Shown in pieces: positions 32,909 through 49,293 of a stretch of DNA of 64,000 nt. The notes beneath the pieces are model-generated. The model did no database searches. It saw only the letters and a program-made list of their open reading frames with translations, and had not been told where the DNA came from. A program made the translations under genes and the position numbers. Within the stretch, counting starts at the first letter, position 1; every line of letters starts with the position of its first letter. Source of the stretch: Candidatus Poribacteria bacterium (GTDB taxonomy: Bacteria; Poribacteria; WGA-4E; WGA-3G); contig PYIY01000195.1 in the NCBI GenBank assembly GCA_003635195.1, positions 13,961 to 77,960 of the forward strand, read 5' to 3'.

Positions 32909-35900
32909 TTAACGTCCCAACGAGATCATATAATCTCGGACGAGTTGAATCTGTTTTTCAGCATCATTGCCAGCGTAACCATCAACTGCCATATGTTGTC
33001 CGCCGACGAGTGGCCAGGCTTGTGGCATCGCCGTTCCGGGTTGGAACGACTGCGGGTCTTTCATCCAATCAATGAGCCAATCCGGCTTGAGACGTTCTTT
33101 TGCCAATGAAAGGTCGGGCCGTCCCGCCTTGTCACTTCCTTCAGGAATAACTTCGCCTTGTGAAGGGTGGCAGGAGATACACTGGAGCTCGTCAAAAATC
33201 TGTTTACCGACGCGCAATTCAGCACGCGTTGGGATTGGCACTTCAAGCGTCTCGTAAGGGTAGGGTTCGTCGTCAAGTGCAGAGAAGTATTCAACAAGCG
33301 TGGTTGCTTCATCATCAGATAGCCCAAATGTCGGCATCCGTACTTTGAGTCCGTAGCGGACATCAGACGGCTCCTTGAGGAAGGTAAACAACCAGTCTGG
33401 ATAGACTCTCGCGCCTTCAGCCTTCAACGGTGGCGGGGCAAACTGCTTGGCAACCATCTCACCCAGCCCCTCATGTGCGATGATAACGTCGCGATAATCG
33501 CCGCCTGCGCCTTCAATCTCGTGGCATCCGGCACAGTTGTATCTCTTCACCAGTCGTCTACCGGCATCAATACGGTTCAATTTCTCGGATCGGTTATGGA
33601 TATAACTGAGCGGGTACTTCTCGGGTTGGAAGCTCTTCAAAAGCACGGCGAGTGCCCTTGCATCTTCTTCGTTAATTTGGAAGACGGGCATCCGCGAGAT
33701 AATGCGCCGGGTTTGGTAACGCCGCGGGTTGGTAACCTTACCGATTGTCCACCCGGTCCAACTATGTTCAACGTCTACTGTATCGCCAAAGTCAAGTTCA
33801 TCAGCGAATTTCGCGCCGAATTCGCCAAGGTCCGCCCCGACTTTTGATTCATTCTCAAAGCCGGGAATTTCATGGCAACCGAAACATCCGTAAGTTCTAA
33901 CAAGTGCCTCACCCTCTTTCACGTCTACTTCACCGATAGACTCAGTCGTTGCATTAGGTGTCGCCTTCTGTAAACTCATCAAATAAGCGACGACGTTGTC
34001 AACTTCGCGAGTGCTTAGCCGCAAGCTCGGCATACTCGTATCGGGATCATAAGCCTTTGGATCGCGAATCCACTGCCGGAGATAACTGGGAGTGACCTTC
34101 GCGCCGACGCTATCGAGTGCTGGTGCGAAATCGCTGCCTAAGCCGTCAACGGCGTGACATGTGAGGCATCCGACGGTTTTAACGGTCTCCTCGCCTGCTT
34201 TAATAACGCTCTCAGATTTGGAATAGTTTACAGAGGCTTCATCAAGGTTTGCATCATGCATCGTTGCGAGATATGCTGCAATAGATTTCACTTCATCGAC
34301 GATACGGAGGACATAATCGTTGGAATAGGGATACTCCGTACCATCATCCGCTTTAACAATGATACCGTTGTCGGTTTTCGTGACAGCACCGGTGCGCGTT
34401 CCGCCGTTCTTGAGGTAGACGACTTGGCTCATACCTTCGGCGGGGAAGAAGTTCGGCATTGTTGCATTTGGCAGATGTGCCTCGGGTTTCTTAATCCAAC
34501 TTTCGAGCCAATCTGTATCTTTGACCTTACTACCGACTTTTGCGAGCGATGGACCGACCTTGTTAATGTTTTCGATTGCACTGTATCCCTCTACAGCGTG
34601 GCAACCGTGGCAACCGAGGTCTTCAAAGAGAGCCAACCCCTTCGTCAAATTTGGTGCATAATCCACAGGTTCATCTGTTTCAGGATCTACGCCGTAATCT
34701 AATTTCATGACCCCATCGTGGCAACGGCGGCAGTTAGATTCCATATACCCCTTCGTCTTTTCGGACGTTCTGCCGGTGTGTTCATCCAATCCGAGTACAG
34801 GACTGAGCCAGTATTCAGCATGCGTTAGGGCGTGGGCAGCTTTCGCTGTCAGTGCTTGCCCTTGTCCACCGTGGCACGGTGTACAGCCAAATCTATCAAT
34901 AGGATGCTTTTCAAGGAGGACATCGCGGTGCGGATGGGTCTGAAGGACGGACCGGTAGCCGGTTTCATAAGAAATTTCAACTTCACCGAAGACATCCACA
35001 TCACTGAAGGTAAGCGTCCCGTTCTCTTCCAGTGTATATTCGTCTGCTTCCGCATCAAATCCATCAATTATGATACTCTCACTACCCTCCTTAATACTTG
35101 CATGTTTGAGGCGTTGTACGACGGGATTTGCGCCATCACCTTCTACCTCAAATATCTCCTGTGCGGATTGTTCATAGCCGCTTCTATCAGCAGAAAAGTG
35201 GCATGTAGCACATCTATCTGCGGTGTAATCGAAGTCTTCAAGATAATATTGCGTGATCGTTCGGGTTTCACGGAAAGGGTTCTCTAATAGGCTACCGAGG
35301 AAGGTTCGTTTGATACCGCCAACGGAATGCAGTTTTTCTTGTAGACGTGCGACTTCGTCATACTTCTCCTTGTCGGCTTGTAGTGCCTGAAGGGATGCTT
35401 GCGCGGCAGCGATGCCTTCCGCTATCTCTGGATCTGTCGCATTATATTTCTGAGCGATGAGGTAGGTGCTGAGCGCCTGCTGTGGATCACCATTGGTTTG
35501 ATAGAATCGCGCCAAAGTTTTGTTGGCATCCGCGAAGACCGCCTCTGCTGCCAAGACAGCCTCAGTGAGTTCACTTTCAATTCGGGATTCAAGTTCATCT
35601 AATTTCTTTTTCCACTTGTCAACAGTTGCATTATATTTACCCTTTGCTTCGTGGAGGCTGTGCTGATATTTATAATTGATGGCATCCGATTCGCTCTGCC
35701 GGAATTTGCGTTCCTGCAGCGCTTCGTCAAGCGTAACCTGAGCGTTCGTTACCTCTTTAGTCAACCTCCCTAACTCTTTTGCGTCGGGTTCTTGAGGTGT
35801 AGAAAGTTCAGGCAAAGCGAGCTTTGCATTCTCCAATTCCGCGCGTGTTTTCTCATATTCATATTGATAAAACTGCTGCTGGATCTGCTTCCATGGACGG

Positions 35901-36019
35901 CGGGTGATCATCTCACTCCAGAACCCCCACAAGGTTACGAGTCCTAACAGTCCGGACAAGATAAAGAACAAAGCAGAATACGATTTATTTTCAGCGGGAA
36001 TTTCTTTTTTGTTCCTCAC
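32909..36019 (-). CDS. Membrane-anchored octahaem c-type cytochrome (bc-complex associated)
   Basis: GTG start with an AGGGAG SD. N-terminal TM and coiled-coil region. Eight CxxCH motifs (CATCHF, CTPCHG, CRRCHD, CHGCHA, CLTCHA, CFGCHE, CAGCHE, CISCHP). Confidence 0.85.
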   Translation of the reverse strand: MRNKKEIPAENKSYSALFFILSGLLGLVTLWGFWSEMITRRPWKQIQQQFYQYEYEKTRAELENAKLALPELSTPQEPDAKELGRLTKEVTNAQVTLDEALQERKFRQSESDAINYKYQHSLHEAKGKYNATVDKWKKKLDELESRIESELTEAVLAAEAVFADANKTLARFYQTNGDPQQALSTYLIAQKYNATDPEIAEGIAAAQASLQALQADKEKYDEVARLQEKLHSVGGIKRTFLGSLLENPFRETRTITQYYLEDFDYTADRCATCHFSADRSGYEQSAQEIFEVEGDGANPVVQRLKHASIKEGSESIIIDGFDAEADEYTLEENGTLTFSDVDVFGEVEISYETGYRSVLQTHPHRDVLLEKHPIDRFGCTPCHGGQGQALTAKAAHALTHAEYWLSPVLGLDEHTGRTSEKTKGYMESNCRRCHDGVMKLDYGVDPETDEPVDYAPNLTKGLALFEDLGCHGCHAVEGYSAIENINKVGPSLAKVGSKVKDTDWLESWIKKPEAHLPNATMPNFFPAEGMSQVVYLKNGGTRTGAVTKTDNGIIVKADDGTEYPYSNDYVLRIVDEVKSIAAYLATMHDANLDEASVNYSKSESVIKAGEETVKTVGCLTCHAVDGLGSDFAPALDSVGAKVTPSYLRQWIRDPKAYDPDTSMPSLRLSTREVDNVVAYLMSLQKATPNATTESIGEVDVKEGEALVRTYGCFGCHEIPGFENESKVGADLGEFGAKFADELDFGDTVDVEHSWTGWTIGKVTNPRRYQTRRIISRMPVFQINEEDARALAVLLKSFQPEKYPLSYIHNRSEKLNRIDAGRRLVKRYNCAGCHEIEGAGGDYRDVIIAHEGLGEMVAKQFAPPPLKAEGARVYPDWLFTFLKEPSDVRYGLKVRMPTFGLSDDEATTLVEYFSALDDEPYPYETLEVPIPTRAELRVGKQIFDELQCISCHPSQGEVIPEGSDKAGRPDLSLAKERLKPDWLIDWMKDPQSFQPGTAMPQAWPLVGGQHMAVDGYAGNDAEKQIQLVRDYMISLGR

Positions 36020-36060
36020 GAACTTTACTCCCTTTTTCTAATTTTCCTTGCGGTTCGTTC
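36020..36060 (-). promoter_or_regulatory. Conserved leader module ACCGAACCGCAAGGAAAATTA upstream of the octahaem cytochrome gene
   Basis: Plus-strand TAATTTTCCTTGCGGTTCG abuts the start codon region. The same module precedes minus-strand starts at 7944, 13425, 27099, 28783, 36968 and 53908. Confidence 0.4.
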
Positions 36061-36101
36061 AAGTGGGCTTAGACTCTGAGGTTTCTTTCCGTTAGCTATT
36101 C

Positions 36102-36968
36102 TTAGATGTTGAACCACGGGGATACCCAGATGTATTTTACATTGAAAAATATTCGCAAGATCATTTTGATTGGCAGTGCGAGCATAGTTAAGAACAGAAA
36201 CGAGACGATGATATATCGAACCAACCCCAGTTCTTGTAAGAAACGGTTACTATTCCGTTTCCAGAAATAGACAATCGGCCCGAGCGAGAAATAACCCGCG
36301 ACGACAGCGAAGCCGAAAAAGTTTGCGGTAACCTCATTACGAATGCCGAAAAGATAGGACAGATTCACGTTCGTCAGCGGTACAACGAGGTGTGGGTCCC
36401 ATGCTTCCCAGGGCGCGAAGAAGTTCCATCCGGGGCCTCTGAGGAATGTGCCGACGACCATCAAGACGATCCACAAAATGATAAATCCGAAGCTGAATAC
36501 AGCGAGTGCGAACGGACGTTCTTTGATGGTATAATAGCCTTTACCTTTTGGGTTTGTGTCGATGTAGGGAATAGCGATCAAGCCTGCAATAATGAGACCG
36601 GGCAGCACCACACCTGCAATCCAAGGATCAAAGTAAACGAGCATCTCTTGGAGTGCGAGAAAATACCAAGGTGCTTTAGAGGGATTGGGAGTTTTTGTCG
36701 GATCGCTCGGTTCTTCAAGTGGGGCATCAATCATAATCGACCAGACGCCTAACACAAGCATCACAATAATAGCGCAGATAAACTCGTTCCGACACAGGTA
36801 GGGCCACACATAGACTTTATCGTTGAGTGCGGCATCCGATGGCACACCTGTTTTATCCGTCTGGCGTGCCTGCCGGTACGAAAGCCAGATGAAATACGGT
36901 ATCAGAAAGAGAATAGCAACAATAGGGACGTTATCCGGCTTCGTCACCAGTGCTATAAAATGCTCCAT
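36102..36968 (-). CDS. petD: Cytochrome b C-terminal part / b6f subunit IV-like protein with extra C-terminal helices
   Basis: PNPSKAPWYFLALQEML corresponds to the PEWY quinone-site motif of PetD/cyt b C-terminal domain. 6-7 TM. Confidence 0.75.
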   Translation of the reverse strand: MEHFIALVTKPDNVPIVAILFLIPYFIWLSYRQARQTDKTGVPSDAALNDKVYVWPYLCRNEFICAIIVMLVLGVWSIMIDAPLEEPSDPTKTPNPSKAPWYFLALQEMLVYFDPWIAGVVLPGLIIAGLIAIPYIDTNPKGKGYYTIKERPFALAVFSFGFIILWIVLMVVGTFLRGPGWNFFAPWEAWDPHLVVPLTNVNLSYLFGIRNEVTANFFGFAVVAGYFSLGPIVYFWKRNSNRFLQELGLVRYIIVSFLFLTMLALPIKMILRIFFNVKYIWVSPWFNI

Positions 36969-37092
36969 ACAATTCTGCTCCTTCTTTTAATGTCCCTTGC
37001 GGTTCGGTTAGGATGCTTTTAGAAATAAGATCCTCGATGCTTGGGATACAACCTTGGTTAAAACTTGTAGCAGGAAATCCCAACCTTGACCG

Positions 37093-37863
37093 CTATAGCG
37101 GGCCGGAGATGCCTCCATCTTTACGGACACGCCAGAAATGCAAAGCCATCAAGACACTTGCCAAAAGTGGCACAGCGACACAATGTAGAATATAGAACCT
37201 CAAAAGCGTTGAGGGGCCTACAATCGTCCCTGCGAGAAGTGCGAATCGGACATCGTTGGATTGTGTGATGTCTTGCGGTGCGAATGGCCCTTCATGCCCT
37301 AATACCGGTGTTGCGCGTGCCATGTTTGTTCCGACGGTCACAGCCCAAAAAGCCAATTGATCCCAAGGTAACAGATAGCCAGTGAAACTCAGGAAAAATG
37401 TTACGAGTAGTAAGATGACCCCGACGGCCCAATTGAATTCGCGTGGCTTCTTGTAGGAACCGGTCAAAAAGACTCTGAACATGTGTAACATTACGGAAAT
37501 AACCATCCCGTGTGCTGCCCAGCGGTGCATGTTCCGTAGGAGCATCCCGAAGGGAATGTCAAATTCGAGGTATTGTACATCGTGGAAGGCGTATTCAGCG
37601 GTCGGACGATAATAGAACATCAGGAGCACGCCTGTGACGGCTGTCACAAGGAACATAAGGAAGGTGATGCCGCCCATGCACCATGTAAAACGGAAGTTGA
37701 GTGCATGGCGAGAAACCCGAGGAGGATGGAGATGCAACCAGACGTTTTGGAGGATTTGTAAGGTGTACCGACGCCCTGTGTCTTCATATCCGTGGCGGAA
37801 TATAGAGCGCCAAATGTCGGAGTTGGTAATCTTTTCTTTGAGCCCTTTACGTTCTTCGTTCAT
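37093..37863 (-). CDS. petB: Cytochrome b6-like (cytochrome b N-terminal, haem b-binding) subunit of a bc/b6f-type complex
   Basis: HRWAAHGMVISVMLHMFRVFLTGSYKKPREFNWAVGVILLLVTFFLSFTGYLLPWDQLAFWAVTV aligns closely with cytochrome b6. The four His ligands are present. Confidence 0.9.
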   Translation of the reverse strand: MNEERKGLKEKITNSDIWRSIFRHGYEDTGRRYTLQILQNVWLHLHPPRVSRHALNFRFTWCMGGITFLMFLVTAVTGVLLMFYYRPTAEYAFHDVQYLEFDIPFGMLLRNMHRWAAHGMVISVMLHMFRVFLTGSYKKPREFNWAVGVILLLVTFFLSFTGYLLPWDQLAFWAVTVGTNMARATPVLGHEGPFAPQDITQSNDVRFALLAGTIVGPSTLLRFYILHCVAVPLLASVLMALHFWRVRKDGGISGPL

Positions 37864-37980
37864 ACTTTTTATAGCAAGTTCCGACGCGTACGTTGCAACA
37901 AAGCCTATTCAAAATACGCCCTATAACGCCGAAACGCCTTTTCTACCTGACCGAAGCCAAGCACAAATGCTCTCCTTTCT

Positions 37981-38475
37981 TTAGACCTTCAAAAAGGAGC
38001 CTGGGTCGGTCCACTGCCCCTTCTCACCTAAAAACTTCACGGACTTATCAATTTCGATCTGACCATCTTCTGCCAATGTAATTTTAACGCGTTCAAGGGG
38101 TCGTGGTGCGGGGCCTTCGTAGTTAATACCTTCCCGGTCAAAGCCGCTGCCGTGGCAGGGGCATTTGAATTTGTTTTCAGAACCGAGCCAGCGCGGTGTG
38201 CATCCGAGATGTGTGCAAATGGTTAAGAGTGCATAGAATTCGCCATCCTGTTTCCGGACGATCCAAACACCGTAGGGTTCCTTTTTGTACTTTTCGCTAA
38301 CGCTGCCCGGCGGATACTCTGCCGGGAATCCTGCTTTAAAAATAGAGGACGGTTCAAACAGCACACGCGGATACAGATACCGAACCAGTCCTGGTCCCAA
38401 AGTCAGCCCCAGTGCTGCAGTGAAATTTCCCCAACCGAGGAATTTGAAAAATTTACGTCGAGATACCACTTCCAC
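37981..38475 (-). CDS. petC: Rieske [2Fe-2S] iron-sulfur protein
   Basis: N-terminal TM/Tat-like anchor is present. Rieske boxes CTHLGC and CPCHGS are present. Confidence 0.9.
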   Translation of the reverse strand: MEVVSRRKFFKFLGWGNFTAALGLTLGPGLVRYLYPRVLFEPSSIFKAGFPAEYPPGSVSEKYKKEPYGVWIVRKQDGEFYALLTICTHLGCTPRWLGSENKFKCPCHGSGFDREGINYEGPAPRPLERVKITLAEDGQIEIDKSVKFLGEKGQWTDPGSFLKV

Positions 38476-40231: not shown

Positions 40232-41788
40232 ATGAAATTAAGCACTGTCGAAGCTAAAAAACGCCCCTCCTTCAACTATATTGAATATTTTGAAACGCAG
40301 CTCTATTATCAATGCATCACGTGTTCAACGGTTGTAGAACCTGAAATGGGGTACTGTCGAGAATGCAATGCAGAGTTAAATCCAAATAATAGGCAGCAGC
40401 TATTTTGCTATGAGTGCAGAAAGCCAATCATCTACAAAAGAGACTATTTCATAAACAAAAAACACTTTGTCTCACACTATCCTGTTAATTACTTAGCATG
40501 CCAATGTCCAGGAAACCTCTGGATACCATTCATAAAAAATCAGAATTTTAGTGATCCTGCTACAGGATTAGTGAGGATCACAGTAGATAATATGTACATT
40601 TGGACTATTTGCTGTGCCGAATCTTCTCGATATAGCAATAATGAAGATATTTACTTCATTAATTGCCAACAGCAAGAAGATGATCTATTCCTAAAGCCCT
40701 ATATAAGATACAATATAGGAAAGACAAAATTATCTACATCAGAACGTAATGAATTTACTGGTAGATACTATAGAATATGCACGGATGTCATATCGTTAGG
40801 TATCAAATTGGGTATTTTAAGAGAATTAATGCGTGATGAAACATTTGCTAGGCGGGGGTGGGTTCGGTTAGAAAATCGGATACAAGAAATATTAGACTTT
40901 TCTGGAATATACTTTAGTAATGAGTTAATATCTAGCCTATTGGAAAATTGTTTTGCCAGATTACGGAGGCTTTTTAATCCAGCCCCCAAAGATAAAGAGA
41001 ACACTGTTGAACGATACAGAAATGACTTTCTCAAAACTTCTTACCCCAAAACACATAAGTTTGAACGTAAGAAATACGGGATCGCAAAACTAATTGGAAG
41101 GCTGAAAATATTAACAAACAAAAGTATATTACACGACGACATTGATTTTAACAGCAATATTTTCCTTGGAGATTGTCGAACCCTATTCGATTTCTACGAC
41201 GACACAGTTCTGAAAACTATAGATATCCTCAACAAGATGCACCGGTTCAAATTGTTCTTTAATCACGAAGACTCATTAAGGTCCTTAGGTTTACATAATA
41301 CTGGTGGAGAGATAGCACTGGCTTACTTGAGATTGGGAGATGAAGCCTTAACCGCATATAAACAAAAACAAGCACTCGAACTATTACGTTTTGACAACTA
41401 CATTGACAATGGAAACCTATCTCCTGAAGAACGTGAAAGTTATGAAAAGAAAAGAGATATTTATGAACGTAACCTTAACTCCTTCTTTGACCGCTGGATT
41501 ATCTGGGATCACCAAACATCTTTAAATATAATCCTTCCAGACGGTCAACATATTGAGATGCCCTATGGTTTCAAGAGTATGCGCCTCACAAAAACCCATG
41601 ATGGCGATTATATTATTTACATTAAAACCCCGGGTATTACCCTATGTCCTAATTACCGTATAGAGTACTTTGGCAATAACGAAAATTTCGCAAGACAGGT
41701 ATTTAGAGTAATTGATAAACAAAGGTATGAACACGAAACTATAGACTTAAGCAATTTCACATACGATTCCTCACTAACTATATTCTGA
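40232..41788 (+). CDS. Hypothetical protein with N-terminal multi-CxxC zinc-ribbon region, encoded in AT-rich DNA
   Basis: 518-aa ORF, about 36-38% GC against about 50% in the flanks. CITCSTV...CRECNAEL...CYECRKP Cys pairs are present. No recognisable catalytic motif. Confidence 0.5.
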   Translation: MKLSTVEAKKRPSFNYIEYFETQLYYQCITCSTVVEPEMGYCRECNAELNPNNRQQLFCYECRKPIIYKRDYFINKKHFVSHYPVNYLACQCPGNLWIPFIKNQNFSDPATGLVRITVDNMYIWTICCAESSRYSNNEDIYFINCQQQEDDLFLKPYIRYNIGKTKLSTSERNEFTGRYYRICTDVISLGIKLGILRELMRDETFARRGWVRLENRIQEILDFSGIYFSNELISSLLENCFARLRRLFNPAPKDKENTVERYRNDFLKTSYPKTHKFERKKYGIAKLIGRLKILTNKSILHDDIDFNSNIFLGDCRTLFDFYDDTVLKTIDILNKMHRFKLFFNHEDSLRSLGLHNTGGEIALAYLRLGDEALTAYKQKQALELLRFDNYIDNGNLSPEERESYEKKRDIYERNLNSFFDRWIIWDHQTSLNIILPDGQHIEMPYGFKSMRLTKTHDGDYIIYIKTPGITLCPNYRIEYFGNNENFARQVFRVIDKQRYEHETIDLSNFTYDSSLTIF

Positions 41789-42234
41789 CCAGTCGCGTAG
41801 GTTGGGTTGAACGGATACCCCCAAACCCTGATAGATCGGCAGGAGAATGAGTTTTCCATAGATGTTAGGTCAGACAAAAACCAAGTGAAACCCAACATTT
41901 TTGCTGATGGTCTGAAGTTGGGTTTCACTGCGTTCTTGATTTCGGATGCCAATATGTTAAATTTACGTGTATTTGGTGCAGCACATCTATTTTCTCAGTT
42001 CCGTTCAACTTGGGGGAGACACCCAAGCAAAACACCTACGCGGCTGTCAACGGCTAAAATTACGGATTTTTCACCGCCTTTCTGTCTAGCGGAATATAGC
42101 GAAATGCCGCGACAGTTGTAAAGGTTACTGCCAATCGACTGTAAGAATATGCCACCTTTCCTGTGGCTGTCGCCGCGGAGGATTTTCGTTTCTATACACC
42201 TGTCGCACGACTGGTACTAAATACGTCCCGATGG

Positions 42235-45200
42235 CTATTGAAAATCAAGCACTTCATCAATCTCTGCCATAATCCGCAGCGTTTCTCCTACTGCAACCAA
42301 AATTCCAGAATACTGCCGCACCTCCGCATGGGTTAACGCCGTGTTTTTTCTATCCTGCAACCACTTCTTACACACCTGATACGCCCCAATCTTATATTCC
42401 CACACCTCAGCAGGTACATCCGTGAAATGTTGATCGTCATTAATCCAAACGTGTCCACCCGCATAGCGAACTTTTGAGACAACGGCATTGCCTTCACCTT
42501 CAAACCGATGTAGCGGTGAAATCTGTACATCTTTCAAAAGATGCCAATCAATCAAATTCTGCCCCAACGCTGCAAGTTTTCGGAAGTATTCAATATCTTG
42601 CGGCAAAGGGATATATGGAAATCCATATTTCAAAAACTCATAGTAACTTTCACGATAGATAGGGCTATAAAGATGGGCGTAGATATAGGCGATAATTTCC
42701 TCTGATGAAACGCCTTGAGGGGGTTTTGATAATGCAGTTTGCGGCAAATCGAATTTTTCTGAGAGCACTTTAAGGAAATCAGGGTTGAAATTATGTTGGC
42801 GTTCTGTTGTCAATTCTGCCCTATTGGGATCCTCATAAATATAGAGCGGGAATACGTGTACAGACTCACTTGATCCACTTGAGAGATAACAATTCTCTGT
42901 AATTTCGTCGGTTATTAAAATATGTTGCCACTGCTTGCCTCCTTTGACTATACGACAGACACAAAGAGCAATATTTTCGTTTAGCAAATGAGGCATAATA
43001 TCATTGCGTGGACTCGTGTGAAATCCGCAGGATCGTCCAGTATAGTAGGTTTTACGAACATCAAAAGGACGGTGTCGAATAGGTACAATATACTGTTTTG
43101 CATTGGAGTGGTCGCGGAGATCTTGTTGTGCCAGATGGACTTTCCAATATCGGTTGTCCAAATCATATTTTTTCTGCACCTCGTTTTCGGAGAGTGACAC
43201 AAAGTTTTGTACAGTCTCGCGTAACGTATTCTCTGTGCGATGAATAGTTACTTCGTTACGTCCGGTGACAATTCCGCTTGAACCGGACTGGAAAATCTCA
43301 TTTAGCTGCCATCCATGTTTGTATATTGCCTCGCGGTTTGGGACAGAATCTTGAGGGACAAAAAGGTAGAGCGGAGATGCGGGATGCAATTCACACCAAT
43401 CAGTTTTTTGGACATCAGTTTCCAAAAGTGTTCTATATTTTTCCTCTCGATTTCCCCACATATCCGCGTAGTAGCATGTTGCTTTGCCCGGAGTGCTGCT
43501 TTCTTTGACGCATAATAGAATCGCAACCCCCACTTCTATGTCAAATACGTTCTGATCCTCTTTTCCATCTGGAATAGCTTCCTCTACTATTATACTGCCG
43601 TGCAAATTAAGTAGGTATATGGAGTCAAAACTGTCTAATAAACTCTGCCGCATCCTACGAAAAGTTAAACCGTCAAGGAAGCTATTATTCACAATGTAAC
43701 CAACAACACCTTCGCCATTTTTATCAATTCGCCACTGTGCCCACCGGATAAACTTAACATAATCGGATTGCAGTGATTTTTTCTGGTCCCAGATCCCCAA
43801 CAGTTGTCCATCTACTGGTTTGTAATCCTCAATGAGCTGTCCAATAAAAGTTGGTTGGTCATCATTATCGCTACTCGGATTTGCCGAGGCTAGGGGATAG
43901 GGTGGATTACCAAGAATGACGAGGAGTGGTTCGTCCCGCTTTACTGAAACCGCTGCATTTGCCTCATCAGAGATAAATCCTGCAAAAGGTAAACGTTGCT
44001 CGCGCTCTATAGGTTCCTCTAACGTATTAGTAAGATAGACGCGGAGACGTTCGGTTGCCTGCCATCCTTGCGCTTGTAGAAACAGACTCAACTTCAGATG
44101 TGCAATCGTATAGGGTGCAACCAACAACTCAAATCCGAAAAGTCGTTTGACCAATTGTGCATTGATATACCGGTTCCAGTCGCCTGTACCGTAGGTCGTT
44201 GTGACGTATTCACGGATGTGGTCAAGTACTGCAAAAAGAAAACCTCCGGTGCCCGTCGCGGGATCAAGAATGAGCGTGTTGTCATCGGAAAGCCCATCAG
44301 ATCTGTTAAGTGCTGTCTTGAGCAAAACATCAACAGATCGAACAATGTAGGAGATAACCTGTGGCGGTGTATAATAGACCCCGCGTTCCACGCGCAGCTG
44401 CGGGTCATATTCAGCAAGAAATGTCTCATAGAAATGGATCACTGGATCTTCAAGATGAGTTCTCGCAATAAACGCCGTGCGAAGCATCTCTGTAGGGACA
44501 TTTTGAAGAAGGTTTGCAATGTCCTCCAAAATATAAGTAATGTTTGCATTAAGATTTGGCGAATCTATTTGGTGGAAAAGTTGTCGCAAAAATGGATTTG
44601 ACTGCGGGAGCGCGCTGGCGGCAGTTTCTCGTGAGAAGTTTGTCGCGTTAGGTAACGCGCAGCGTGCAGCGAAGAGTCCATACGCTAGTGTCTGTGCGTA
44701 CATATCCGCAAACTTGCCAGGAGTCAATGTAGAGAGGAGAAGTTCCTTAAAGGCCGAGAACATCGCGTAGGTGTCGCTGTTTTCATCGGTGAGCCTCGTT
44801 TCGATTTGTGTTTGGAGTTCACGGGTTCGGCGTGCAAGATGCTTCGCGAGTGCCTCCGGAGTGGTGATTTGCATGGAGCCCGCACTGAAAAATCCATCTA
44901 ACAGGCTTTCCAGATTTTCAATTCCGTTGTCAATTAGTGCTATCGCGCGCGATGTCCCATTCGTATATAACCGAAACTCCACGAAATTGGTGAGGATAAA
45001 GTTATCAAGGTTCTCAATAAAACGTTCATTCTGCACCTTGGCGTGCCCAGTGAGTGCATCAAGGTTCCTGCCATAAGCCTCCGCCTCAATATAACCGAGA
45101 GGGAATAGACCTTCTCTGACAACAAAATCCGGTCTGCCGATTTCTAACTGTCGCGGCTCGTGGGTAATCCTGATAGTATATTCTAAAAGTTCAGCGGTCT

Positions 45201-45314
45201 GTTCCAAAAAGTCTTTGAGATGTCCGTGTAAGGAGAGTTCAGCGGTAGCATCGCCCTGTTCTCGGGTCTGTTGGATGTTTTGCCTGTACGTTCTACAAAT
45301 CTGTTGAAATAACA
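42235..45314 (-). CDS. MmeI-family (Type IIL) single-chain restriction-modification enzyme homolog: N-terminal PD-ExK-like domain + N6-adenine DNA methyltransferase + TRD
   Basis: MTase motif I ILDPATGTGGFLFAV and motif IV LGNPPYP are present. The N-terminus GRPDFVVREGLFPLGYIEAEAYGRNLD...LTNFVEFRLY parallels MmeI GFVDLFWPGILLIEMKSRGKDLD...LVCDFQRFRLT (from memory). Start taken as MLFQQIC at 45314 (GGAG SD); the ORF track extends to 45432. Confidence 0.75.
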
Positions 45315-45499
45315 TTAGGCTCCTTTTTAATTCAGATAGTTTTAGAATCGAATATAAATCGCGTTTGTCCTCTCTACTACCAGTACTATTTGTTGAAAAT
45401 GAAAACAGTTGATAATGTTTTGGTAACAACAATACATTAAAACCCTAAGTATGGTAGTGGTATCTGAACGAGCTTTAACTCTGTTCACTGTTAGGAATA

Positions 45500-47449
45500 T
45501 TATCTTCCCCGATTGAGATCTTCAACAGTTTTCTTGATACCTCTTGCAATATTTGTAAATGCCTCATCCTGATTTTCCCATAGCGTCACAGCCTTCACAC
45601 CTCTCGGTAATGCCTGAAGTTTACCAAAGGGTGCCTCTTCCCAATCAACAGGACGCAGTATTATAGGAATTACCCGGGCCTCTCCGACACTGTGTCGTTC
45701 CATAGCACGCTTCATTTCAATATCATAACAATAATCGGATGCAAGGAAATCAGCACTAACAAGCAGAAGTATTATGTGAGCAGTATTCAAGTGTTCATGA
45801 ATCTCTCCTTCCCATTCTCTACCAGCACTTATTTTCCGATCATGCCAATCTGTAATAACTCCCTGTCTTCTCAAAATGGAGAGGTGGTTCTCAAGTTGTT
45901 CTCGTAACTCCTCATCTCTGTGGGAATAAGAATAAAAAAGCTCAACCCCACCCGGTTGCGATCCTGAACCGATTGTTTGATCCTGTTGTTCTTGAATTAA
46001 ATTGGATAAATACTCCCTCTCTGCAATCATTTGGAGAAACGAACCCTCTGGTAATGGAAGAAAAGGATCATCATGTATTGCTTGCATTCTGCGGATGGCG
46101 GCCTCCACTTGTTCACCATGTCGATGACAGACTTTCCAAACTTTCTCCACCTTCTCTTTTTCACTCGTCCCAGGTATATAATCAATGAGATCAATTAACT
46201 CATTGAGCATCTTATAATAAAAATTATCATAATTTAGCGCAGTAAAGTGCTTTGCTTGGCGAACATAATCAATCAGCGTAGTTCTGACTTCATCCTTCCC
46301 AACACCTTCCTTAATAAAATCAAACGTGTAAATACCACTGTCATCTACATCATCTAATTCCGAGCCATAAGCGGCAAATCTTCGATCTATACATTGCGAA
46401 CAACCACCACAATGAGTTGCTTGGCCTGTATGTTGAAGTGTTTGACTGCAAGACACTGTGCTTGTGATCAAATCCTCTCGTCCAGCTTCAGATAGAATCT
46501 GGTAGATTTCTGTTTTGGTTTTCCATAAGAAAGGGGTGGCGATTTTAACTTTCGGTTCATAGATTGTTGCAAAGAAATTCTCAAGACACATTATCGTTTT
46601 TGGATGTGTCGTCCGGCTAGCTCTTGCATTCATCAGATCTTGTCTCTTTGGAAAGTTAATCGAAGTGATTCCATTTTCATAAACAAAAATCTCCCTCTGG
46701 GAAAGAGCATGTGACAAAGCGTAAGCGATAGCAGTATACAAAAAAGAACGAGTTCGTTGCGTTTCCTCCCTCGCTCGAATTTGGCGTAAACTACAATAAA
46801 ATTTGTAATGTCTGATCCGATTCGGATAACGTTGATGAAGTGCTCTAACTAACTGGTCCTGTGTTCTTGCAGTCTCTGGCTGACCAGAACGGTGACTAAT
46901 GAGGCAGAGTTGATCAGAAGAATTTTCAAGACAGTCAACAATCCCAGCCAAGGAATCAAGTCCTCCTGAAAAAAGAATCACTTTTGTATTTTGCTGGGGT
47001 TCAATTTGAAACGTTTCCTGATCAAACAAGTTTGTCGGGTCAGTTGAGTGCCCGGATTGAAAAGAGAAATGATACGTCTGATCGCCGGACATAAAGACGA
47101 GTGTTTCTTTGAGTCTTTCCTTGACATCAGCCCTATCCCAGAAAGCAAAATCTCGAACTTTAATGACAAAGTAAAATGACCTTGCCCAACTATGGGACTC
47201 TACACTGGCTTTATTTCCACGAGAGGTTAACCTATCGGCACAAAAAACATAGGCAGCAATCTCTAACAAATCAAGGATACGATCAGGAAAATGAGATACA
47301 TAGTGTATAAAACTAGGCAGGCCAAGTTTTACATTTGGGATCTTGTTGGAAAATTCTCGATATTCAAGGACTAAATTATCATCTTGAGCCCATTGCTGAG
47401 GTGGATCTGCACCATTACATAGTACAATTCGTGGAGGGACATCTCTCAC
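45500..47449 (-). CDS. Fusion protein: unknown N-terminal domain + QueC-like PP-loop ATP pyrophosphatase domain + C-terminal TIR domain
   Basis: PP-loop KVILFSGGLDSLAGI is present. The QueC-type C-terminal Zn motif reads LWKTKTEIYQIL...STVSCSQTLQHTGQATHCGGCSQCIDRRFA; compare E. coli QueC LMWIDKAETW...[21 protein letters not shown]. The final ~140 aa are a bacterial TIR domain (LFYSYSHRDEE...W...LLLVSADFLASDYCYDIEM with the conserved Glu). Confidence 0.7.
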   Translation of the reverse strand: MRDVPPRIVLCNGADPPQQWAQDDNLVLEYREFSNKIPNVKLGLPSFIHYVSHFPDRILDLLEIAAYVFCADRLTSRGNKASVESHSWARSFYFVIKVRDFAFWDRADVKERLKETLVFMSGDQTYHFSFQSGHSTDPTNLFDQETFQIEPQQNTKVILFSGGLDSLAGIVDCLENSSDQLCLISHRSGQPETARTQDQLVRALHQRYPNRIRHYKFYCSLRQIRAREETQRTRSFLYTAIAYALSHALSQREIFVYENGITSINFPKRQDLMNARASRTTHPKTIMCLENFFATIYEPKVKIATPFLWKTKTEIYQILSEAGREDLITSTVSCSQTLQHTGQATHCGGCSQCIDRRFAAYGSELDDVDDSGIYTFDFIKEGVGKDEVRTTLIDYVRQAKHFTALNYDNFYYKMLNELIDLIDYIPGTSEKEKVEKVWKVCHRHGEQVEAAIRRMQAIHDDPFLPLPEGSFLQMIAEREYLSNLIQEQQDQTIGSGSQPGGVELFYSYSHRDEELREQLENHLSILRRQGVITDWHDRKISAGREWEGEIHEHLNTAHIILLLVSADFLASDYCYDIEMKRAMERHSVGEARVIPIILRPVDWEEAPFGKLQALPRGVKAVTLWENQDEAFTNIARGIKKTVEDLNRGR

Positions 47450-48231
47450 TTCTTACTGCTCTCCCGTTGTAATTCCTCACGCATCTTTCCAAAAGCGTGC
47501 CATAAAAATCCTTGAACCTCTTTTTTGCTAGGAATACCTTTTTTCGTATGTTGATTAAACCAACCTGCTGCGAAAGACTGTGTAATCTTCGCTGTTTCAA
47601 AGGCATTTGAAGAAATAGCATCAATGTGTTTTTCAAGATACTGCCCAAATTTAATTCGTTCATCAATACTACCTAAAGCTGCAGAAATTTCTCTTTCCAA
47701 AAAATACTCTAAATACCCCTGTGTAAATTTTCCGAAAAACAGACGCGATAATTCACAGAATCCCGCACCATTCCCTGCTTTACGCCATACTTCAAAAGGA
47801 TCTTTCAATGAATCCAAAAGACTAAGTGAATTCACGTGATTTTGATCATACCAAATAGAAATTGCTTCACTAGCAGCCTTTTGGGCAATTCCACTATATT
47901 CAAAAGAATCTTTTTGAGATGCAACATAAGCATTGACAGCTTTCGCAAAAGAAAGTGGTGTTGGATTATTAGGAAGTTCAATCCCAATATCCAACAACCA
48001 AACTTGTGGGTTTTCTTCACGCGAAGCAACAGCAAGATTGACTAGGAATTGAAACGTACCCAAAACACCACTATCTCGCTCAATATGACGAAATCGTGAT
48101 CTAACATTCTGAATTGTCTTTTGCGTAATATCCTCGATTTCAGTATCAGATACATGCCTTCCAGCAATCTGTTCAAAAATATCTCGCCACTTTTTCGTTT
48201 GGGGAAGAACAGACATTCGTTCATGACCCAT
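47446..48231 (-). CDS. Hypothetical 261-aa protein translationally coupled to the QueC-TIR gene (ATGA overlap)
   Basis: AT-rich coding ORF with no recognised domain. A possible R-x4-H (RSRFRH) motif is present. Confidence 0.5.
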   Translation of the reverse strand: MGHERMSVLPQTKKWRDIFEQIAGRHVSDTEIEDITQKTIQNVRSRFRHIERDSGVLGTFQFLVNLAVASREENPQVWLLDIGIELPNNPTPLSFAKAVNAYVASQKDSFEYSGIAQKAASEAISIWYDQNHVNSLSLLDSLKDPFEVWRKAGNGAGFCELSRLFFGKFTQGYLEYFLEREISAALGSIDERIKFGQYLEKHIDAISSNAFETAKITQSFAAGWFNQHTKKGIPSKKEVQGFLWHAFGKMREELQRESSKK

Positions 48232-48372: not shown

Positions 48373-49293
48373 TTAATCTTGGTTTTTGACAAGAACTACC
48401 TTAATAGCAGATAAACCTCTATCCGTATGATGGATGTCAAATTTCACTTTTTGACCTTGTTGAAGCAAATTGACTTTTTCATTCAAAATTTGTGACTCAT
48501 GCACAAATATATCCGGATCATGTTCCTCACACGTTATGAAGCCGTACCCTTTGATTGTGTCGAACCATTTTACCTCTCCTTGTGTCCGGATTAAAAGCGG
48601 CGAAATTTCTCTTTCGATCATTTTAACGGCTTTTGAAAATGGAATCTGAAAAAATTCTCTATCCATTCGTATTCGATAATCACTCAGTAGTTTGAAAACG
48701 AGATTTTCTGCCTCTTTGGCATCTTCCACTTCAAAAACTGCTTTTGCAGAATACGGTATTAACACACCTGTTGCTGAGTTTATCTCCTTAACTCTGTCTT
48801 CTACAGAACGAGTAGTCATTCCGATCTTTAGAACATCAGGTTCATCTTTCCTTGACAAAATATACAACCAACCATGTTTCCCCTGAGAGACACGAATTTT
48901 TCTATGATTTTTCCAATGACTAAGGTAGGTCGGAAGGGTCCCGCTAATCAAAGTCCCACGTATCAAAAGTGCTTGTTCAAAATCACGTCCCTTTAGACTT
49001 TCCCGGAGCTTAACTAATAGGGAAACAATGGAATTCATTTCACTTCTAGGCGGATGGCCAAGTCTATCATAGACAGTAAACCAATTCCATTGGTCTTTCC
49101 TTAATGACCGATTAAACATACCTTTCAGTTCTGAAATAGCATCCAAATCTACCTGGTCTGGAGGAATTCCATCACTTAAAAAAAGAGATACAACATCTAC
49201 GGCATTATCAAAACGTCTTCTCATAGTTACCGACAAATCTGACATTCCAAATCCATATTTATGTATAGTCATCGGCGTTATCTTCTTTATCAA
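48373..49293 (-). CDS. T5orf172/MUG113 (GIY-YIG superfamily) domain protein with C-terminal cold-shock (CspA-like S1) DNA-binding domain
   Basis: GWLYILSRKDEPDVLKIGMTTRSVEDRVKEINSATGVLIPY...REFF matches T5orf172. The C-terminal GEVKWFDTIKGYGFITCEEHDPDIFVHESQI...GQKVKFDI is a cold-shock domain. Confidence 0.65.
   Translation of the reverse strand: MIKKITPMTIHKYGFGMSDLSVTMRRRFDNAVDVVSLFLSDGIPPDQVDLDAISELKGMFNRSLRKDQWNWFTVYDRLGHPPRSEMNSIVSLLVKLRESLKGRDFEQALLIRGTLISGTLPTYLSHWKNHRKIRVSQGKHGWLYILSRKDEPDVLKIGMTTRSVEDRVKEINSATGVLIPYSAKAVFEVEDAKEAENLVFKLLSDYRIRMDREFFQIPFSKAVKMIEREISPLLIRTQGEVKWFDTIKGYGFITCEEHDPDIFVHESQILNEKVNLLQQGQKVKFDIHHTDRGLSAIKVVLVKNQD

What the first reader, a model, noticed from the sequence alone, without database searches (positions are those of the whole stretch)
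42235..45432. MmeI-family Type IIL R-M enzyme homolog with an apparent Lys-to-Glu change in the PD-ExK nuclease motif
The MTase motifs (ILDPATGTGGFLFAV; NPPY) and the N-terminal block PDFVVREGLFPLGYIEAEAYGRNLD...LTNFVEFRLY parallel MmeI. In MmeI the catalytic triad is D..E-M-K (LLIEMKSRGKDLD). The MmeI sequence used here is recalled from memory, so residue-level equivalence needs checking. Here the equivalent position reads IEAEA, so the catalytic Lys appears to be replaced by Glu.

That would predict a nuclease-dead, modification-only or differently targeted enzyme. Alternatively the register of my by-eye alignment is off. Either way it is a single-chain RM-like enzyme immediately downstream of the QueC-TIR operon. 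It may mark self DNA for that system.
Basis: partly seen in the sequence, partly recalled or inferred. Interest (0 to 1): 0.55.

Follow-up and report, generated by a model that had tools for sequence, protein, structure and literature searches.

The report
DrdV-like restriction-methylase with conserved Glu-for-Lys nuclease site
This is an intact single-chain restriction-modification enzyme from a sponge-symbiont (Poribacteria) genome whose nuclease active site carries a glutamate where relatives have an essential lysine, and because that change is conserved across a whole old subfamily it looks like a remodelled (BamHI-like) site rather than a broken one.

Summary
[quoted passage not shown] The residue aligned to the essential PD-ExK lysine is glutamate (D63...E77-A-E79). 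A profile alignment to DrdV (7lo5; D64/E79/K81) confirms the register.

The family label is wrong. The protein is DrdV/Type ISP-related (Type_ISP_C domain), not MmeI-family; MmeI-specific Pfam models and the MmeI and BpuSI structures do not match.

The "nuclease-dead" reading is not supported, though it is not excluded:
- E79 occurs in 223 of 316 homologous N-domains, in every one at 45% identity or more, and down to about 33% identity.
- E26, D63 and E77 stay invariant, and clade-specific residues co-vary with E79 (N110, N96, D104, R162/R163).
- The nuclease domain is as conserved as the methyltransferase domain (dN/dS 0.25) and is the most conserved domain among paralogues within a genome.
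- BamHI (E77/D94/E111/E113) is a precedent for an active ExE site.

QueC-TIR is adjacent only at one orthologous locus (three related contigs) and at none of 20 other Poribacteria loci, so coupling is unsupported.

Verdict: a new variant of a known kind, of moderate interest. Biochemistry is needed to settle nuclease activity.

The parts
42235..45315 (-). Complete gene for a 1026-aa single-chain restriction-modification enzyme (DrdV-like Type IIL/IIG); stop codon at 42235-42237
   Evidence: ORF, translation, ATG after AGGAG, N-termini of homologues, PADLOC REase_MTase_IIG E=3.8e-240, thousands of ~1025-aa homologues
45320..45324 (-). AGGAG ribosome-binding site 4 nt upstream of the ATG
   Evidence: read directly from the sequence
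44935..45315 (-). N-terminal PD-(D/E)xK-fold nuclease domain (aa 1-127)
   Evidence: AF2 model, pLDDT 86.7, alpha-alpha-beta-beta-beta-alpha-beta-beta-beta topology. Foldseek: top 8 hits are DrdV; isolated DrdV nuclease chains 7lvv_C/D give target-normalised TM 0.72-0.76, rmsd 3.4-3.9 A
45238..45240 (-). E26 codon, aligned to DrdV E25 (auxiliary active-site Glu; comparable to BamHI E77)
   Evidence: profile alignment; 100% conserved in the ExE clade
45127..45129 (-). D63 codon (GAT), the Asp of the 'PD' motif, aligned to DrdV D64
   Evidence: invariant in all 316 homologues
45079..45087 (-). E77-A78-E79 codons (GAG GCG GAG). E77 aligns to DrdV E79; E79 occupies the position of the essential DrdV K81 / MmeI K82
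   Evidence: Census: 223 ExE against 87 ExK
45028..45033 (-). Q95-N96 in helix alpha3. Q95 is invariant in the ExE clade; N96 is clade-specific
44986..44988 (-). N110 codon (LTN motif after beta4). N in 100% of ExE proteins, D in 62% of ExK proteins; the profile alignment puts DrdV D108 here
44446..44934 (-). Helical connector region (aa 128-290), including the clade-specific R162-R163
   Evidence: AF2 secondary structure, DrdV domain description
43306..44445 (-). Gamma-class N6-adenine DNA methyltransferase domain (aa 291-670)
   Evidence: Pfam N6_Mtase; alignment to DrdV, LlaBIII and LlaGI
44239..44268 (-). SAM-binding motif I, LDPATGTGGF (aa 350-359)
   Evidence: D351, P352, G355 and F359 invariant in 59 homologues
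43897..43908 (-). Catalytic motif IV, NPPY (aa 470-473), aligned to DrdV N448-Y451, which contact the flipped adenine
42268..43299 (-). C-terminal target-recognition domain (Type_ISP_C, aa 673-1016); the most variable domain among paralogues
   Evidence: Pfam E=1.5e-76; domain identities

Best explanation
The gene encodes an intact, stand-alone, DrdV-like Type IIL/IIG restriction-modification enzyme of a Candidatus Poribacteria bacterium. The domain order is N-terminal PD-(D/E)xK-fold nuclease, helical connector, gamma-class N6-adenine methyltransferase, and a Type ISP-type target-recognition domain.

Shown: the domain architecture, full-length homology to DrdV, intact SAM-binding and NPPY motifs, and an acidic active-site set E26/D63/E77/E79 in which E79 replaces the canonical lysine.

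Inferred mechanism: as in DrdV, the enzyme binds an asymmetric site through its recognition domain. [quoted passage not shown]

Inferred chemistry: the nuclease uses a remodelled, all-acidic 'PD-ExE' site like BamHI (E77/D94/E111/E113). E79 would act as an extra metal ligand or general base in place of the lysine, supported by clade-specific residues (N110, Q95/N96, D104, S28, R162/R163). On this reading the K-to-E change defines an old, functional subfamily and is not an inactivating mutation.
For: Architecture and homology:
- Pfam Type_ISP_C E=1.5e-76 plus N6_Mtase; PADLOC Type IIG model E=3.8e-240.
- DrdV matches at E=4e-46 by phmmer and at E=1.5e-104 over residues 4-981 by profile.
- The N-domain model (pLDDT 86.7) matches DrdV nuclease chains with TM 0.72-0.76.

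E79 is a clade trait:
- 223 of 316 N-domains are ExE, including all 196 at 45% identity or more, and the trait reaches down to about 33% identity.
- All 21 Poribacteria genomic loci are ExE.
- E26, D63, E77 and E79 are 100% conserved within the clade, alongside clade-specific invariants.
- Positions 79/110 pair as E/N 228, E/D 0, K/D 68, K/N 41.
- On an N-domain tree with column 79 masked, the ExE sequences form one bipartition in 96% of bootstraps.

Constraint on the nuclease domain:
- Mean identity is 72%, against 75% for the MTase and 64% for the TRD, across 118 homologues.
- dN/dS is 0.25 against the 92%-identical orthologue L001.
- Within one genome the nuclease domain is 0.89-0.98 identical, higher than the MTase at 0.80-0.88 and the TRD at 0.76-0.84.

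No conserved partner nuclease or helicase lies next to the paralogues.

Precedent: the BamHI active site is PD94-E111xE113 plus E77, and E113K is inactive (PMC8845596).
Against: - No member of the ExE clade has been characterised biochemically, as far as I could find.
- In the two closest studied systems the lysine is essential: mutating DrdV K81 abolishes catalysis, and MmeI K82 is fully conserved with mutations that abolish cleavage.
- Conservation of the N-domain could reflect a non-catalytic role such as oligomerisation, DNA clamping or autoinhibition.
- Nuclease-domain dN/dS (0.25) is about twice that of the MTase (0.11).
- K93, a candidate relocated lysine near DrdV K94, is not conserved in Poribacteria (K in 66 of 183).
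- I had no model coordinates, so I could not verify that the co-varying residues lie in the active site.
- The BamHI analogy rests on active-site composition, not on homology beyond the shared fold.
Confidence: 0.55

Rival explanations
1. One reading: the nuclease is catalytically dead and the enzyme acts only as a methyltransferase. The conserved N-domain would be kept as a structural, oligomerisation or DNA-binding module. The protein would then be an orphan or epigenetic methyltransferase, or a specificity/modification subunit for something else.
For: - The aligned lysine is essential in DrdV and MmeI.
- MmeI homologues lacking the motif (YeeA) showed no endonuclease activity.
- Nuclease-domain dN/dS is higher than that of the MTase.
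- Poribacteria carry several paralogues per genome, which would be easier to tolerate if they were harmless.
Against: - A dead site has no reason to keep E26, D63, E77 and E79 at 100% across 197 sequences down to about 33% identity, or to fix Glu specifically rather than drift.
- The nuclease domain is the best-conserved domain among paralogues in one genome.
- No conserved partner helicase or nuclease is present, unlike the YeeA-type loci.
- BamHI shows that ExE sites can be fully active.
Confidence: 0.3
2. The enzyme is functionally coupled to the upstream QueC(QatC-like)-TIR operon, for example by methylating self DNA so that this system can tell self from non-self.
For: - It lies on the same strand, 184 bp downstream of the QueC-TIR gene.
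- The block orf261, QueC-TIR, RM recurs in L001 and L081.
- All of these genes sit in a low-GC island.
Against: - The three instances are one orthologous locus in closely related genomes (RM 90-92% identical), so the adjacency is explained by descent.
- Twenty other Poribacteria loci with this RM family lack QueC-TIR, orf261 and T5orf172-CSD.
- Seven of those loci sit among housekeeping genes.
- None of 79 loci with TIR-domain relatives has this RM nearby.
- Type IIL enzymes are self-contained systems.
Confidence: 0.05
3. The remodelled site is active but with altered chemistry or substrate, for example strand-specific nicking, a different metal requirement, or cleavage only as a hetero-oligomer with nuclease domains of co-resident paralogues.
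For: - Near-identical nuclease domains among paralogues in one genome (up to 98%) would allow mixed assemblies of the DrdV type, where nuclease domains from different molecules pair.
- There are many clade-specific substitutions around the site.
Against: There is no direct evidence. The high within-genome similarity could equally come from gene conversion.
Confidence: 0.1

Closest known systems
DrdV (Type IIL RM enzyme of Deinococcus wulumuqiensis; PDB 7lo5/7lvv)
   Same: - Nearly the same length (1029 vs 1026 aa) and the same domain order.
- The family profile aligns over DrdV residues 4-981, E=1.5e-104.
- The nuclease fold matches, TM 0.72-0.76.
- E25/D64/E79 correspond to E26/D63/E77, with similar D-to-E spacing (15 vs 14 residues).
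- The NPPY and adenine-pocket residues are conserved.
   Different: - The essential K81 is Glu here, and DrdV D108 is Asn (N110) here.
- Identity is low: about 16-21% in the N-domain, and single-sequence phmmer aligns only residues 294-1001.
- The recognition sequence and cut distance of this enzyme are unknown.
Type ISP enzymes LlaGI / LlaBIII (PDB 5ffj, 4xqk)
   Same: The methyltransferase and Type_ISP_C recognition domains are homologous (profile E=1e-84 to 4e-92). PGAP names plasmid-borne relatives 'type ISP restriction/modification enzyme'.
   Different: There is no SF2 helicase-like ATPase domain or coupler (1026 aa against 1406-1578 aa; no helicase Pfam hit). The alignment starts only at the connector/MTase (profile position 221). 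Translocation-collision cleavage is therefore not expected.
MmeI family (Type IIL; MmeI D70/E80/K82)
   Same: The overall design is the same: an N-terminal PD-ExK-fold nuclease, a gamma-class N6-adenine MTase and a C-terminal TRD in one chain, with no second methyltransferase gene.
   Different: - MmeI_Mtase is below the Pfam cut-off, and no MmeI_N, helical, TRD or C-terminal model matches.
- No MmeI or BpuSI chain is found by the family profile at E<=10.
- D-to-E spacing is 14 residues rather than 10.
- The lysine that is completely conserved in that family is Glu here.
BamHI (Type IIP; active site E77, D94, E111, E113)
   Same: It is a PD-(D/E)xK-fold nuclease whose third motif residue is Glu rather than Lys, and it has an upstream helix Glu. 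The composition matches E26/D63/E77/E79. E113K inactivates BamHI, which shows that the Glu is functional in such sites.
   Different: There is no detectable sequence homology beyond the fold, and BamHI has a different architecture (a small homodimeric endonuclease with a separate methyltransferase). This is an analogy about chemistry only.

Membership tests
DrdV-like Type IIL/IIG single-chain RM enzymes | One polypeptide with N-terminal nuclease, helical connector, gamma-class N6-adenine MTase and C-terminal TRD, homologous to DrdV along its length | tested here: met
   Profile against PDB: 7lo5 E=1.5e-104, aligned 5-994 / 4-981. Pfam domains. Foldseek of the N-domain.
DrdV-like Type IIL/IIG single-chain RM enzymes | Canonical PD-ExK catalytic triad (DrdV D64, E79, K81) | tested here: not met
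   D63 and E77 are present, but the K81 position holds E79. This is a clade-wide trait.
DrdV-like Type IIL/IIG single-chain RM enzymes | Intact SAM-binding motif I and catalytic NPPY motif | tested here: met
   LDPATGTGGF (aa 350-359) and NPPY (aa 470-473). These residues are invariant in 59 homologues and align to DrdV N448-Y451.
DrdV-like Type IIL/IIG single-chain RM enzymes | Methylation of one strand only, and cleavage at a fixed distance that requires several bound sites | not testable with these tools
   Requires biochemistry or methylome data.
MmeI family (Type IIL) | Similarity to MmeI along the whole length / the MmeI-specific Pfam domains (MmeI_N, MmeI_hel, MmeI_Mtase, MmeI_TRD, MmeI_C) | tested here: not met
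   Only MmeI_Mtase matches, at 20.6 bits against a cut-off of 27. The N-domain has no MmeI_N hit at E<=10. No MmeI or BpuSI chain appears among PDB matches at E<=10.
MmeI family (Type IIL) | Completely conserved D...E-x-K aligned with MmeI D70, E80, K82 | tested here: not met
   D63-x13-E77-A-E79: the spacing differs and Glu stands in place of Lys.
Type ISP RM enzymes | An SF2 helicase-like ATPase and coupler between the nuclease and the methyltransferase | tested here: not met
   No helicase domain in Pfam. The protein is 1026 aa. LlaBIII and LlaGI align only from their MTase onward.
Type ISP RM enzymes | Type_ISP_C target-recognition domain | tested here: met
   PF18135, E=1.5e-76, aa 673-1016.
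PD-(D/E)xK nuclease fold superfamily | Core alpha-beta-beta-beta-alpha-beta fold, with Asp at the start of beta2 and (D/E)-x-K at the end of beta3 | tested here: met
   In the AF2 model D63 precedes beta 64-68 and E77/E79 lie at the end of beta 71-78. Foldseek hits include DrdV, an HsdR fragment, Hjc and EcoRV. The third motif residue is the BamHI-type Glu variant.

The most novel reading that the evidence does not exclude
The PD-ExE clade could be a large, ancient family of naturally disarmed Type IIL enzymes. Their strictly conserved pseudo-nuclease domain would no longer cut DNA and would instead serve as an oligomerisation or DNA-sensing module. The several paralogues per Poribacteria genome would then be site-specific epigenetic methyltransferases, or decoy/regulatory subunits that co-assemble with each other, rather than restriction enzymes.
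Probability: 0.25. Interest if true: 0.55.

Novelty: new variant of a known kind. Interest (0 to 1): 0.4.

Why it matters
Type IIL enzymes such as MmeI and DrdV are models for how a single protein chooses between protecting host DNA and destroying foreign DNA, and they are platforms for engineering new specificities. In every characterised member the PD-ExK lysine is essential.

This finding points to a populous natural subfamily in which that lysine is replaced by glutamate together with a set of co-varying residues. In my sample it accounts for 223 of 316 N-domains and is expanded to several copies per Poribacteria genome. One lysine-bearing relative (P0261) sits inside the clade. Together these offer a natural experiment on how PD-(D/E)xK active sites switch between Lys-type and BamHI-type chemistry.

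If the nuclease is instead inactive, this would be a large class of disarmed RM enzymes retained in sponge symbionts, a group already known to be enriched in RM genes (PMC5649159). Either result would also improve annotation: these proteins are currently labelled 'N-6 DNA methylase', 'type ISP enzyme' or 'predicted helicase'.

Tried and rejected
- **N-domain alone against PDB.** phmmer with the N-terminal 290 aa found nothing even at E<=10. A family profile was needed.
- **Split or short architecture.** The first homologue search returned only proteins of 506 aa or less, which suggested a split gene. The full-length query found thousands of ~1025-aa homologues, so I rejected this. Some short hits are truly disrupted copies, such as L019.
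- **A third 'DExD' class**. I rejected it as a BLAST gap-placement artefact: the MAFFT alignments show only E or K at this column.
- **K93 as a relocated catalytic lysine** (near DrdV K94). Rejected as a general explanation, because K occurs in only 66 of 183 close homologues.
- **Single origin of ExE from a tree of the MTase+TRD region.** The tree is star-like and inconclusive. The first bootstrap attempt timed out. The N-domain tree resolved the question.
- **Promoter and terminator scan around the gene.** Counts were at chance level, so it says nothing about whether the gene shares an operon with QueC-TIR.
- **Phase-variable homopolymer at the NPPY region**, as an explanation for truncated homologues. 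None is present in this gene.
- **Second copy in the window.** None found. The neighbouring 1036-aa ORF is a multi-haem cytochrome c.
- **Metagenome scan with QueC-TIR.** It returned mostly TIR-only relatives, and only one true QueC-TIR relative at the same syntenic locus.
- **Conserved partner genes beside the paralogues.** None found apart from housekeeping synteny.
Full report
**1. What is there**

The minus strand carries an uninterrupted ORF at 42235-45432. The mechanical TTG start is probably not the real one. An ATG at 45313-45315 lies 4 nt after an AGGAG, and homologues begin at exactly that point (MxFQ...). The gene is therefore 42235-45315 and encodes 1026 aa. It is the only copy in the window.

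**2. Which family**

Pfam finds a strong C-terminal Type_ISP_C specificity domain (aa 673-1016, E=1.5e-76) and an N6_Mtase domain. Eco57I and MmeI_Mtase fall below their curated cut-offs, and no other MmeI-specific model matches. The N-terminal 290 aa match no Pfam nuclease model even at E<=10. PADLOC classifies the protein as a Type IIG restriction enzyme-methyltransferase (E=3.8e-240).

Among solved structures the best match is DrdV (7lo5/7lvv), a 1029-aa Type IIL enzyme. The Type ISP enzymes LlaBIII and LlaGI follow, matching only from the methyltransferase onward. A 59-sequence family profile extends the DrdV match to residues 4-981 (E=1.5e-104). It finds no MmeI or BpuSI chain even at E<=10. 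There is no helicase domain, so this is not a Type ISP enzyme. By sequence it is DrdV-like, not MmeI-family; it resembles MmeI only in overall design.

**3. The Lys-to-Glu observation is correct**

The DrdV preprint gives the active site as follows: D64 and E79 bind the metal, K81 is the canonical PD-ExK lysine whose mutation abolishes catalysis, and E25 and K94 complete the site. The profile alignment places our RPD63 on RPD64, GYIE77-A-E79 on GYWE79-S-K81, and E26 on E25. The codons are GAT at 45127-45129 and GAG GCG GAG at 45079-45087.

An AlphaFold model of residues 1-290 (pLDDT 86.7, pTM 0.82) has the PD-(D/E)xK topology, with D63 at the start of beta2 and E77/E79 at the end of beta3. Its eight best Foldseek hits are all DrdV. 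The D-to-E spacing here (14 residues) matches DrdV (15) rather than MmeI (10).

**4. The substitution is a conserved clade trait, not a private lesion**

I mapped the catalytic positions in 316 homologous N-domains, drawn from two homologue searches and an exhaustive search of 1.84 billion cluster representatives.
- 223 read D...E-x-E and 87 read D...E-x-K.
- All 196 sequences at 45% identity or more are ExE, and ExE persists down to about 33% identity.
- All 21 Poribacteria loci in the GTDB species-representative genomes are ExE, while nearly all of the 59 other genomic homologues are ExK.
- Within the ExE clade E26, D63, E77, E79 and Q95 are 100% conserved.
- A set of residues is clade-specific: L27, S28, L88, G90, A92, N96, F99, D104, F106, N110, L116, R162 and R163.
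- E79 occurs only with N110 (228 cases, never with D110). ExK proteins have D110 in 68 cases and N110 in 41, and the alignment puts DrdV D108 at this position.

With column 79 masked, an N-domain NJ tree places all 37 sampled ExE sequences on one side of a single bipartition together with one ExK protein, P0261. This recurs in 96% of bootstraps at Jaccard >=0.95. P0261 carries the clade's Q95/N96/N110 signature but keeps the lysine, so it is either a basal intermediate or a revertant. A tree of the MTase+TRD region was star-like and uninformative.

**5. The nuclease domain is under constraint**
- Among 118 full-length ExE homologues at 60% identity or more, mean identity to the query is 72% in the nuclease domain, 75% in the MTase and 64% in the TRD.
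- Against the 92%-identical orthologue L001, dN/dS is 0.25 (nuclease), 0.11 (MTase), 0.22 (TRD) and 0.16 overall.
- Among four paralogues in one 7-Mb Poribacteria chromosome, the nuclease domain is the most conserved part (0.89-0.98). The MTase is at 0.80-0.88 and the TRD at 0.76-0.84.

This pattern fits the DrdV authors' point that Type IIL nuclease domains are constrained by the protein-protein contacts needed for cleavage. It also fits TRD diversification towards different target sequences. It is not what a decaying, functionless domain would show.

**6. Does ExE mean dead?**

Evidence for inactivity is real. The aligned lysine is essential in DrdV and MmeI, and no ExE member has been tested as far as I could find. 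Three points weigh against it:
- BamHI is a fully active PD-(D/E)xK enzyme with the site PD94-E111-x-E113 plus E77. Putting a lysine at that position (E113K) destroys its activity (PMC8845596).
- The set here, E26/D63/E77/E79, has the same composition.
- The fixation of Glu specifically, the retained metal ligands and the co-varying neighbours look like remodelling rather than loss.

I therefore favour an active BamHI-like site (about 0.55) over a methylation-only enzyme (about 0.3). This is an inference, not a demonstration. K93, a possible relocated lysine, is not conserved (K in 66 of 183).

**7. Context and the QueC-TIR idea**

The gene lies in a low-GC stretch (0.37-0.45 against about 0.48). 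Upstream on the same strand are three genes: a T5orf172/MUG113+cold-shock-domain protein, a 261-aa ORF with no family match, and a QatC-like QueC+TIR fusion.
- The same block recurs in L001 and in the short contig L081. These are one orthologous locus in close relatives.
- None of the other 20 Poribacteria loci carrying this gene family has those neighbours.
- Seven of those loci share a different, housekeeping synteny, and no partner nuclease or helicase is conserved.
- None of 79 loci with TIR-domain relatives has this RM nearby.
- Promoter and terminator scans were at chance level.

The enzyme is best read as a self-contained system that happens to sit in a defence island. Functional coupling to QueC-TIR is unsupported.

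**8. Organism and biology**

The closest loci are all Candidatus Poribacteria MAGs, with several paralogues per genome: at least 4 in OZ240244.1 and 3 in OY764061.1. More distant ExE members come from Planctomycetota (Gemmatales), Verrucomicrobiota and Armatimonadota MAGs. Sponge symbionts are known to be enriched in RM genes (PMC5649159). Some copies are disrupted, for example L019 at 496 aa. The copy in the window is intact.

**9. Verdict**

The family label should be DrdV-like Type IIL/IIG, not MmeI-family. The 'nuclease-dead' and 'marks self for QueC-TIR' interpretations are not supported by comparative evidence, though inactivity cannot be excluded without biochemistry. What remains is a previously unremarked, conserved PD-ExE variant of a known enzyme kind: a new variant of a known kind, of moderate interest.

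Noticed in passing
window 45500-48231 (-): A 649-aa fusion of a QatC-like QueC domain (NCBIfam QatC E=2.5e-58, below the curated cut-off) with a C-terminal ThsB-like TIR domain. A 261-aa ORF with no hit in Pfam, NCBIfam or PADLOC precedes it and overlaps it by 4 nt. In L001 these two genes are only 68% and 72% identical, while the flanking RM gene (92%) and T5orf172-CSD gene (91%) are much better conserved, so this looks like a fast-evolving candidate defence pair.
   Followed up: partly
window 48373-49293 (-): A 306-aa protein that fuses a T5orf172/MUG113 (GIY-YIG-like) domain to a C-terminal cold-shock domain. It has PADLOC hits to PDC-S57 and CSD_V and sits at the head of the same low-GC island.
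   Followed up: no
window 40232-42121 (+): A 518-aa protein with an N-terminal double zinc ribbon and a 104-aa ORF lie in the lowest-GC segment of the window (0.37). They are absent from the orthologous locus L001, where the LamG-domain gene directly abuts the RM gene. This looks like a recent insertion between the RM gene and the LamG gene.
   Followed up: partly
L002, L003, L006, L014 (OZ240244.1); L008, L011, L019 (OY764061.1): Single Poribacteria chromosomes carry 3-4 or more paralogues of this enzyme. Their nuclease domains are nearly identical (up to 98%) while their TRDs are more divergent, which could reflect gene conversion or selection for cross-compatible nuclease domains. L019 is disrupted (its ORF ends at 496 aa), and many ORFs truncated near the NPPY motif appear on megabase contigs.
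   Followed up: partly
protein P0261 (1122 aa): An ExK protein that nests inside the ExE clade on the N-domain tree. It carries the clade's Q95/N96/N110 signature, so it is either a transitional form or a revertant in the K/E switch.
   Followed up: partly
window 32909-38475 (-): An operon with a Rieske protein, split cytochrome b (N- and C-terminal parts as separate genes) and a 1036-aa multi-haem cytochrome c. This is an ordinary respiratory bc-type complex flanking the island. The 1036-aa ORF is not a second RM gene.
   Followed up: yes
plasmid hits H7, H10-H15: Distant relatives of the N-terminal domain (about 26% identity) are encoded on Borrelia plasmids (23 Borrelia or Borreliella records among the 54 hits) and are annotated 'type ISP restriction/modification enzyme'. 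I did not check whether they have a helicase domain or which motif variant they carry. The window protein, which PGAP would probably name the same way, has no helicase domain.
   Followed up: no
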